Assembly (NCBI GenBank): GCA_964016885.1 | Contig: OZ024745.1 | Coordinates: 43,338,001 to 43,402,000, forward strand | Source of the DNA: Eledone cirrhosa | Taxonomy: Eukaryota | Direction: 5' to 3' | Length of the DNA: 64,000 nucleotides | Shown: positions 3-16,078 of the stretch, piece by piece | How the letters are laid out: each line of letters opens with the position of its first letter | Numbering within the stretch: the first letter of the stretch is position 1 | Made by a program: the position numbers and the translations under genes | Notes under the pieces: model-generated | Databases searched by the model: none | The model's input: the letters and a program-made list of their open reading frames with translations, nothing else | What the model was told of the DNA's origin: nothing

Positions 3-383
3 TGTGGAACCTGCACTCACCTCATTGAAGGCAACACGTATACATTTAAATCAGGACAAAATTTTACTGTAAAAAATCACTTCACTTGCTCATCAAAAAA
101 TCTAATTTATGCCATTAAATGTAAAGGATGCAATGAAGATTATATAGGACAAACTAAACTCACACTCAGAAACAGAATGACAGTTCATCGCCAACAATTA
201 CGAGATCCAACCACGAGACAGATACCACTAAGTGCACATCTAGACATTTGCGCAAGTAATAAGACACCCAAATTCCAAGTCTTCCCATTTTACCTTTGCG
301 CTAACAATACAACAGAACAAATGCGAATAAATAAGGAAAATATGTTTATTCAAAAATATAGACCAACATTAAATAAGGTTTAA
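3..383 (+). mobile_element. Penelope-like retroelement, C-terminal GIY-YIG endonuclease (ORF enters from left edge)
   Basis: Frame 3 is open from position 3: CGTCTHLIEGNTYTFKSGQNFTVKNHFTCSSKNLIYAIKCKGCNEDYIGQTKLTLRNRMTVHRQQ...KENMFIQKYRPTLNKV*. The LIY-x-CxxC-x-YIGQT-x-R-x-H pattern and terminal E..FI..Y.P.LN are typical of PLE GIY-YIG domains. An HHR fold lies about 1 kb downstream. Confidence 0.9.
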
Positions 384-544
384 TATACATTATGTCAACA
401 CCACAATATGACATACACACACACACATAACACCTTCTACTTTAGAAAATAAAAACCCGAACTAAATAAACCTTAACATACGTTTGCACTGGCAATACAA
501 CAGCAAACACGAAAAAGTCAGGAAAATATGTTCATTCAAAAATA

Positions 545-930
545 TTCCTACTAAAGGAATCACTTTCCTACACACACACATACACACACACACACAATAT
601 ATATATATATATATATATATTCTCTTCATCTTAACATGCTAACCATACTCCCACACACATAACACCCATACACACACATAACAACCCCCACACCTACAAC
701 TCCCTCCCCATTTCTACTAATAGAACCACTTTCCTACACACACATATATATATACACACACACAAAATATATATTCTCTCCATCTTAACATACTCGCACA
801 CACACACATAACACCCATATACACACACACACACAACTCCCTCCCCCATATCTACTAATAGAATCATCTTCCAATACACACATACACACACACACACACG
901 CATATACACACACACAAGCACACAAATAAA
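545..930. repeat. Degenerate CA-rich tandem repeats in the PLE 3' region
   Basis: Recurring blocks (ctaatagaaccactttcctacacacac, atattctct..catcttaacat, acataacacccata) interleaved with (CA)n. Confidence 0.6.
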
Positions 931-1411
931 CACATATCTTCAGTCTCAATAGAAAATCTGAACTCTGACAGCTGGCCATATTCACTGAACCAGAACATTT
1001 CTCCCAATCCCTTTTCCCTTGACCACTATCTCTCCATTGTCATAACATTCACTATAAAGACTACAGAATAGTTTTCCAAATAAGGGCGCAAAAATGTAAT
1101 GAAAACTTGTTCACGTGACAGCCAAATTTCATTTATAACCAACCAAAAAAAAGCCTTCGTGAGCCTCATTTTTTCAAGTAAAAAGAAATTCAAACACTCA
1201 TATATGAAAAAACAACCAGTGACAACCCCCCCCTCTTATTTGAAGAACTATTGTAACGCGAACTGGCGCGAAATTTATTATAATTATTGACAAACCAATC
1301 AAATTACTTCTCGAAAAACCTGGCTTTCGAGCCACTTTTTCCATATAAAACAAGTAACATTTAGAGACCAACCAGATGTGAGAAAAACCACAGACCCTCC
1401 ATCTCAACTCA

Positions 1412-1449
1412 CCTTTTGAAAAGCAGAAGAACTGCGAAACCGGTAAAGG
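1412..1449 (+). ncRNA. Minimal type I hammerhead ribozyme, U3-A8 core variant
   Basis: CCTT|TTGAAAA|GCAG-AAGAA-CTGC|GAA|ACCGGT|A|AAGG: stem I CCTT/AAGG, 4-bp stem II, palindromic stem III, GUA cleavage triplet. AATAAA at 1455-1460. Confidence 0.75.
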
Positions 1450-1580
1450 AACCAAATAAATATATATATTTTAAAAAAAAATAAGACTTCAGTTGCATTT
1501 TCGATTTCATCTCTTTTTCTTTATACTTCCACTCGTGTAGGACACCTCGGTTATTTTTCATTTTGTAAAAAAAACCTCAC

Positions 1581-2981
<1,401 letters not shown>

Positions 2982-12843: not shown

Positions 12844-12984
12844 CAAAGACAATAACAAATAAATACCTAGTTCGTGGTTTCACTTTACTCATGAGAGTTT
12901 CGACATCCTCATCAGTCATTCCTTGGATATCTTGTAAGAAAACGATATCGTAGCGTGCAACAATCTGCGAAAAATATAGATAGA

Positions 12985-16078
<3,094 letters not shown>

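What the first reader, a model, noticed from the sequence alone, without database searches (positions are those of the whole stretch)
1412..1460. PLE-linked hammerhead with compensatory U3-A8 core
Seen: the core reads UUGAAAA rather than CUGANGA, with all three stems intact, about 1 kb after the GIY-YIG stop and just before AATAAA and the (TA)n junction. Known: C3-G8 is a Watson-Crick pair in the active hammerhead and U3-A8 is a tolerated swap. Inference: a double compensatory change points to selection on function rather than decay.
Basis: partly seen in the sequence, partly recalled or inferred. Interest (0 to 1): 0.72.

Follow-up and report, generated by a model that had tools for sequence, protein, structure and literature searches.

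The report
Penelope hammerhead with inherited U3-A8 core
A hammerhead-ribozyme motif with an already published U-A core swap sits in over 15,000 copies of a jumping gene; it likely cuts its RNA only weakly, and a thriving sister family carries a further core change predicted to cripple cutting, so these families could test whether such elements need to cut at all.

Summary
The motif is real: a type I minimal hammerhead (1412-1449) in the pseudo-LTR of a young Neptune-type Penelope-like element (PLE). U3-A8 is the family state: 6,561 of 6,587 copies, none C3-G8; the wider family has 15,664 matches. The variant is published for Schistosoma PLEs (PMC4209133), and this scan has noted it in other genomes and elsewhere in this one. 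A protein tree nests it among C3-G8 relatives, so it is derived and old. A sister family at 56% protein identity shares it, with one compensatory pair each in stems I and II. That supports selection on the fold. Selection on cleavage is weaker. The sister family (4,164 matches) also has A13C in 99 of 100 listed. U3 can pair with A17 and trap the cut site. 86 of 100 unselected copies span the scissile bond, but 3 begin exactly at it. Corrections: stem III forms only in a dimer, and AATAAA and the short TA run are internal; the element runs on to 1525 or about 1590. Cleavage was not tested.

The parts
3..383 (+). 3' end of PLE ORF2: end of the linker zinc-finger motif and the GIY-YIG endonuclease with CCHH residues. 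The copy continues upstream of the window (L031), is 5'-truncated, lacks ORF1 and has one in-frame stop in the RT.
384..1370 (+). about 1 kb 3' untranslated stretch with CA/TA microsatellites and an internal duplication
1371..1384 (+). pile-up of copy 5' ends, likely the transcription start of the pseudo-LTR (inferred; initiator-like CCAGATG at 1372-1378, motif name recalled)
   Evidence: 50 of 100 unselected copies start in 1365-1384, peak 1373-1377; family D ends sit at a similar distance from U3
1412..1415 (+). hammerhead stem I, 5' strand (CCUU)
1416..1422 (+). core box UUGAAAA: U3 (1416) and A8 (1421) replace C3-G8
1423..1435 (+). stem II (GCAG/CUGC, loop AAGAA), closed by G10.1-C11.1
1436..1438 (+). 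G12-A13-A14 core box (A13 is C in sister family D)
1439..1444 (+). palindromic stem III (ACCGGU), predicted to pair only between two RNAs
1445..1449 (+). A17 (1445), predicted cut between 1445 and 1446, stem I 3' strand (AAGG); A17 can pair with U3
1450..1525 (+). rest of the pseudo-LTR, with the internal AATAAA (1455-1460) and short TA run; first common 3' end at about 1525
1526..1590 (+). optional 'tail' of about 65 nt; second common 3' end; in full-length copies it runs into ORF1
1591..2900 (.). (TA)n-based microsatellite, the insertion target

Best explanation
This is a type I minimal hammerhead motif in the pseudo-LTR of an abundant Neptune-type Penelope-like retrotransposon, whose U3-A8 core likely arose once from C3-G8 in an old ancestor and which is predicted to cut only weakly, as a dimer. 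Shown: the motif, its fixation, the element's anatomy, the derived position on the tree, covariation of stems I and II with a sister family, and that most insertions span the scissile bond. Inferred: transcription starts about 40 nt upstream of U3; two RNAs pair through ACCGGU to complete stem III; U3-A8 stands in for C3-G8 in the active fold but competes with a U3-A17 pair that extends stem I over the cut site, so only a minority of RNAs is cut after 1445; reverse transcription starts at 1525 or about 1590 and mostly copies uncut RNA back to the start site; the few copies beginning at 1446 would come from cut RNA. Selection keeps the fold and some capacity to cut, but efficient cutting is likely not needed for spreading. 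This window's copy is a dead, truncated one.
For: Fixation: 6,561 of 6,587 U3-A8, 0 C3-G8 in subfamily A; in the wider family (15,664) only 2 of the 100 listed near-matches to a C3-G8 pattern are exact, both old damaged copies. Polarity: family E in the same genome (48% identity) has CUGAAGA; 29 of the 31 metagenome loci with a credible motif (80 scanned) are C3-G8; families A, C and D form one clade (100/99) among C3-G8 rows. Fold: A versus D change one stem I pair (C-G/U-A) and one stem II pair (G-C/U-A) on both sides. Dimer: ACCGGU pairs between molecules in the cofold (-20.3 kcal/mol). Trap: P(U3-A17) = 0.56 in the monomer; the matching C3-G17 trap is described in PMC3884650. Ends: 86 of 100 copies start at or before 1445; 3 start at 1446, the most of any single position in 1385-1469 (Poisson P 0.002 on the mean rate, 0.013 on the downstream rate); 22 of 60 inspected copies with a non-A at 1445 begin at 1446. 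PMC11167929 reports uncut RNA as the main insertion substrate for another PLE.
Against: No cleavage assay and no RNA data. PMC9901934 states that in its type III construct only the G3-C8 swap rescued this pair and all other single and double core mutants were low. The 1446 excess is small, was not compared with neighbouring positions by the same method, and some cases may start at 1447 next to an A in the flank; 2 of the 3 unselected cases are also in the selected set. The covariation rests on one pair per stem between two lineages (2 pairs changed on both sides; 256 of 500 shuffles reach that count). In subfamilies B and C the fourth stem I pair is a mismatch, and in C stem II has only 3 pairs with a G-U closure. 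Family D has A13C and a stem I that barely forms (P 0.03). The core state of the six protein-only rows in the clade is unknown, so two separate origins in A and D are not excluded.
Confidence: 0.6

Rival explanations
1. The motif no longer cuts in this clade. It is kept as a structural RNA element (dimerisation through the palindrome, protein binding) or because it overlaps internal promoter or splice signals; U3-A8 was an early step of catalytic decay and A13C a later one.
For: Family D spread to at least 4,164 copies with A13C in 99 of 100 listed, with no alternative at 2% or more in an independent run, while keeping stem II and the palindrome. All 31 outgroup motifs have A13. 86 of 100 family A-C copies span the cut site. 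The motif lies about 40-75 nt behind the inferred start site, and a 7-nt motif upstream of stem I is shared by A and D. PMC11167929: hammerhead mutants do not affect insertion in vitro.
Against: G5, A6, A9, G12, A14, A15.1-U16.1 and H17 are unchanged between A and D. A small excess of copies starts exactly at the predicted cut. The youngest subfamily has the best-paired stems (median mismatch to class majority: A 1.4%, B 3.5%, C 6.2%; pairs). U3-A8 is cited as active in vitro (PMC3088659).
Confidence: 0.25
2. It is a fully active ribozyme in vivo, helped by the element's protein; cut RNA serves another step (release from read-through transcripts, circularisation), and insertions are simply made from the uncut pool. 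The first reader's reading holds in full.
For: Compensated 3-8 pair kept over about 0.8 substitutions per site between A and D; a second, independent U3-A8 origin next to a C3-G8 sister (L438 and L455 versus L447); PMC11167929 reports that a PLE hammerhead cleaves only when protein is added.
Against: U3-A17 trap; A13C in an equally successful sister family; only about 1% (selected estimate) to 3% (3 of 100) of copies start at the cut site.
Confidence: 0.12
3. U3-A8 is neutral drift by AT-biased mutation in one master copy, and the resemblance to a working hammerhead is only inherited.
For: Both changes are GC-to-AT transitions; fixation across copies follows from descent alone.
Against: Two families with 56% protein identity, whose nucleotide match in the window is confined to 1329-1447, keep the core and change stem pairs on both sides; none of the 31 outgroup motifs kept as credible has an unpaired 3-8 combination (where scoring favoured paired cores).
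Confidence: 0.03

Closest known systems
Minimal type I hammerheads (min-HHR) of metazoan Penelope-like elements, including the U3-A8 variant of Schistosoma mansoni Cercyon elements (Cervera and De la Pena 2014, PMC4209133; parts 1-2 of 4 read)
   Same: Type I, short helix I, palindromic helix III predicted to need a dimer, G10.1-C11.1, position in the pseudo-LTR, inverted pairs 100-700 bp apart, U3-A8 core (about 1,300 hits reported there).
   Different: [quoted passage not shown]
Natural U3-A8 hammerheads (Perreault et al. 2011, PMC3088659; passages and section 8 read)
   Same: Same covariation of the 3-8 pair, cited there as active in vitro.
   Different: Here it is combined with A17, which can pair with U3, in a minimal dimer-type motif without an evident tertiary loop.
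Neptune clade PLEs (Craig et al. 2021, PMC8557442; passages read)
   Same: C-terminal GIY-YIG with CCHH, CX4CxxC linker, ORF1 separated by a frameshift, (TA)n targets, tandem and inverted pseudo-LTRs, optional tail, 3' hammerhead.
   Different: Tail is about 65 nt rather than 30-40; not placed on a tree with reference Neptune or Nematis elements.
Poseidon element PAc of the green anole (PMC11167929; passages read)
   Same: Two reverse-transcription start points bracketing a tail; uncut RNA as the main insertion template.
   Different: PAc has C3-G8 and its ORF starts inside the hammerhead; here the ORF1 start codon lies about 170 nt downstream of the cut site.

Membership tests
Type I minimal hammerhead of PLEs | Core boxes with a Watson-Crick 3-8 pair, G12-A13-A14, A15.1-U16.1 and H17 | tested here: met
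   U3-A8, GAA, A-U, A17 in the window; fixed in 6,561 of 6,587 copies
Type I minimal hammerhead of PLEs | Helices I and II can form; G10.1-C11.1 closes helix II | tested here: met
   4 bp each; one pair per helix changed on both sides between families A and D; weaker in subfamilies B and C
Type I minimal hammerhead of PLEs | Palindromic positions 15.1-16.1 that allow a dimeric helix III | tested here: met
   ACCGGU pairs between molecules in the cofold; self-duplex -8.3 kcal/mol
Type I minimal hammerhead of PLEs | Location in the pseudo-LTR of a PLE, on the coding strand | tested here: met
   Present at both ends of full-length copies L307 and L308
Type I minimal hammerhead of PLEs | Site-specific self-cleavage after H17 | not testable with these tools
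   Only an indirect trace: 3 of 100 unselected and 22 of 60 selected copies begin at 1446
Neptune-clade PLE | Single RT followed by a C-terminal GIY-YIG endonuclease with CCHH motif | tested here: met
Neptune-clade PLE | CX2-5CxxC zinc-finger-like linker before the endonuclease (shared with Nematis) | tested here: met
   CGRSNCGTC in ORF2
Neptune-clade PLE | ORF1 joined to RT-EN by a frameshift | tested here: met
   Overlapping frames in L308; the same U-run slippery site in families A, D and E; pseudoknot and coiled coil not tested
Neptune-clade PLE | (TA)n targets, tandem or inverted pseudo-LTRs, optional tail | tested here: met
Neptune-clade PLE | RT groups with reference Neptune elements | not tested
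   No named reference elements were in the trees; filed as Neptune-type by anatomy only

The most novel reading that the evidence does not exclude
In this clade of PLEs the hammerhead has been dialled down step by step (C3-G8 to U3-A8 with a U3-A17 trap, then A13C) into a mostly or wholly non-cutting RNA fold that is still selected, while the elements stay highly mobile. Three co-resident, recently active families (E: C3-G8/A13; A: U3-A8/A13; D: U3-A8/C13) then form a natural series showing that PLE hammerheads are kept for something other than cleavage, or that C13 is an unreported active core.
Probability: 0.3. Interest if true: 0.65.

Novelty: new member of a known kind. Interest (0 to 1): 0.4.

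Why it matters
The U3-A8 core is known, so the finding as posed is ordinary. What remains useful is the setting. The role of hammerheads in endonuclease-bearing PLEs is described as unclear (PMC8557442), and one in vitro study finds cleavage dispensable for insertion (PMC11167929). One genome here holds three abundant related families with a canonical core, a U3-A8 core and a U3-A8 plus A13C core, which allows a direct comparison of cleavage rate with transposition success. Standard C3-G8 descriptors and Rfam miss about 20,000 such motifs in this genome.

Tried and rejected
Rfam found no hammerhead at E up to 10. A private double mutant was rejected. A C3-G8 ancestral subfamily in this genome was not found: 2 exact among the 100 listed of 116, about 0.2 expected from the singles, both old copies, one with a U3-A8 inverted partner, and no C3-G8 copy with another mismatch. 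An apparent stem I covariation in the old subfamily (A-U for C-G), seen in a few copies, failed: most of the 100 listed of 566 keep AAGG opposite ACUU. An intron from the GT at 1443 to the AG at 1538-1539 was considered; that AG is not shared by family D, there are no RNA data, and it is left open. Sequencing runs: no RNA holder listed; contig lay-ups showed no pile of ends at the cut site but also missed the 1373-1377 pile-up, so they are uninformative. Incidental copies added no independent starts at 1446; none of the 4 family D copies lacking the motif (45 examined) starts at its cut site, too few to test. Six descriptor hits in metagenome loci were dropped as chance (inside an ORF, opposite strand or long weak stems: L397+1795, L419+3156, L430-, L456, L462-, L470-). 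Literature: no report of A13C or of cephalopod PLE hammerhead cores turned up; the library lacks most subscription papers. Five papers were not held (PMC5785218, PMC1986816, PMC4008931, PMC4447102, PMC2271363), so rates for U3-A8 and A13 mutants were not seen; figures and supplements of PMC4209133 were not seen and may show A13 variants. A by-sequence look-up of earlier findings was empty.

Full report
Observation. Window 1412-1449 reads as a type I minimal hammerhead on the + strand: stem I CCUU/AAGG, core UUGAAAA (U3 = 1416, A8 = 1421), stem II GCAG/CUGC, GAA, the palindrome ACCGGU, and A17 at 1445. A strict descriptor finds it once in the window and never in 60 Markov-1 resamples of the 54 kb non-simple part. 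Rfam does not detect it, and the monomer fold is no more stable than shuffles (z -0.94). Stem III does not form in one molecule; in a cofold of two copies ACCGGU pairs between them (-20.3 kcal/mol). AATAAA (1455-1460) and the short TA run are internal: of 30 copies, 16 end near 1525, 12 near 1590 and 2 continue into ORF1.

The element. The frame ending at 383 is a GIY-YIG endonuclease. Upstream of the window the copy is 5'-truncated, has one stop in the RT, and is preceded by an inverted pseudo-LTR with a second copy of the motif on the other strand. Full-length copies have the motif at both ends, an ORF1 of about 400 aa, an overlapping RT-EN frame with a U-run slippery site shared with two other families, and a CX4CxxC linker. 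With (TA)n targets and an optional tail this is Neptune-type anatomy as described in PMC8557442 (passages); it was not tested against reference RTs. The closest named proteins are from Octopus bimaculoides (75%) and Argonauta hians (65%), so the host is likely an octopod.

Fixation. With positions 3, 7 and 8 free there are 6,587 matches. 16 are not U3 (9 C, 4 G, 3 A; all A8) and 10 are U3 but not A8 (3 G), which leaves 6,561 U3-A8 and no C3-G8. A looser pattern gives 15,664, covering subfamilies A (this copy), B and C, with median mismatch to the class majority of 1.4%, 3.5% and 6.2% in distinct fetched copies. A C3-G8 pattern with one mismatch gives 116; of the 100 listed, 2 are exact, 63 C3-A8 and 35 U3-G8 by my count, and none is C3-G8 with another change. 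There is no C3-G8 subfamily. Fixation among copies reflects descent from master elements and does not by itself show selection.

Polarity and covariation. A sister family D (56% identity over 480 aa) has the same U3-A8 core and palindrome, with U-A for G-C in stem II and U-A for C-G in stem I. On six representative rows 87% of cells pair against 22-59% for slid registers, but the two double-sided changes are one event each between two lineages. Family E (48%) has CUGAAGA. Of 80 metagenome loci, 31 give a credible motif: 29 C3-G8 and 2 U3-A8, all A13 (six hits dropped as chance). A tree of 28 rows (18 of those 31 loci, chosen to fit the time limit and leaving out duplicates and most distant rows; A, C, D, E; six proteins of unknown core) needs two changes: the A/C/D clade (100/99) among 13 C3-G8 rows, and a distant pair beside a C3-G8 sister. 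U3-A8 is therefore derived, old and recurrent. One origin for A and D is the simplest reading but is not shown, because the cores of the proteins between them are unknown.

Signs that cleavage is weak. First, family D has 4,164 matches, and 99 of the 100 listed carry C at position 13; an independent run shows no alternative at 2% or more at positions 3, 8 or 13. That A13 is nearly invariant and that its mutants are strongly impaired is recalled knowledge; PMC9901934 (passages) reports low activity for CUGA-region mutants other than the G3-C8 swap, and I found no text on A13C. Second, U3 can pair with A17 and extend stem I over the cut site (P 0.56 in the monomer, -6.4 against -4.7 kcal/mol; also in the dimer fold). 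This mirrors the C3-G17 trap in PMC3884650 (passages), where G17 variants cut 8- to 100-fold slower; the transfer to U3-A17 is my inference. Third, among the first 100 copies picked only by a downstream 22-mer (16,942 in all; the script counted 101, one twice), 27 extend upstream of 1365, 50 start at 1365-1384, 9 at 1385-1445, 3 at 1446 and 11 at 1447-1469. So 86 span the scissile bond, as expected if uncut RNA is the template (PMC11167929, passages). The peak at 1373-1377 likely marks the transcription start; family D ends lie at a similar distance from U3.

Signs that some cleavage occurs. 1446 has more starts than any other single position in 1385-1469 (P 0.002 on the mean rate, 0.013 on the downstream rate). 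Of 205 copies with a non-A at 1445, 60 were inspected: 22 begin at 1446, 2 are duplications from 1446, 2 deletions, 2 local insertions and 32 point or small-indel variants (the four non-start classes sorted by eye). That is about 75 copies (50-103), roughly 0.8% of about 9,400, against 0.15% per position upstream and 0.48% downstream. The excess is modest, neighbouring positions were not counted by the same method, and A-rich flanks blur 1446 with 1447. The youngest subfamily also has the best-paired stems.

Comparison with what is known. PMC4209133 (parts 1-2 of 4 read) reports U3-A8 in Schistosoma PLE minimal hammerheads, about 1,300 hits, and low dimer activity for this class. PMC3088659 (passages, section 8) reports natural U3-A8 and cites in vitro activity. 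PMC6765202 (passages) reviews the dimer model. The preprint 10.64898/2026.07.22.740005 (part 1 of 5), PMC2920678, PMC11014351 and PMC12192606 (term searches only) added nothing on this point. Earlier notes of this scan describe U3-A8 PLE hammerheads in other genomes and in this one; they are unchecked AI notes and are not counted as support.

Verdict. A real and fixed, but already known, core variant in a new element family: interest 0.4, new member of a known kind. Best reading (0.6): a weak, dimer-dependent ribozyme whose fold is selected. The boldest open reading (0.3) is a step-wise loss of catalysis with the fold retained, for which families E, A and D give a ready test.

Noticed in passing
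G000 family D, e.g. L187:1498-1535, L305, L309, L310: Sister PLE family with a U3-A8 plus A13C hammerhead core in at least 4,164 copies and two loop-II subfamilies; I found no report of such a core.
   Followed up: partly
L306, L311 (G000 family E): Third abundant Neptune-type family with long open RT-EN frames and a canonical CUGAAGA hammerhead whose stem II is 3 bp behind a U-U mismatch.
   Followed up: partly
L031:6615-7115, just upstream of the window: Inverted pair of ends of another repeat family with a canonical CUGAAGA hammerhead and a long stem II; at least five more canonical hammerhead families occur in fetched loci.
   Followed up: no
window 1443-1539: Donor-like GTAAAG overlapping the GUA cleavage triplet and a pyrimidine tract ending in TAG at 1539; family D has a branch-point-like TACTAAC at a similar place but not the same AG. 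A possible 5' UTR intron.
   Followed up: partly
window 1541-1547 with the stretch before ORF1 in L001/L007; family D in L192: TCGTGT and ACACGA flank the tail in both families and could pair (8 bp in D), a candidate hairpin at the second reverse-transcription start.
   Followed up: no
window 1401-1407: ATCTCAA upstream of stem I is shared by families A-D about 30 nt behind the inferred start; it could be a promoter element or a partner of loop II.
   Followed up: no
L438, L455 versus L447 (metagenome contigs): Independent U3-A8 origin in a distant PLE lineage, with U17 or C17 rather than A17 and a C3-G8 sister sharing stem I.
   Followed up: partly
window 19368-20375 (+): 336-codon open stretch that looks like the 3' part of a LINE (RTE-like) reverse transcriptase frame; likeness judged by eye.
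   Followed up: no
window 1591-2900, 12900-14000, 20800-23000, 27600-30200: Long compound (TA)n satellites with a short AGTCTTC/AGTCTTT spacer unit in the first.
   Followed up: no
L088-L094 (G000:C1 348.86-348.95 Mb): About 9.6 kb tandem array that carries an inverted pair of this family's ends in each unit.
   Followed up: no
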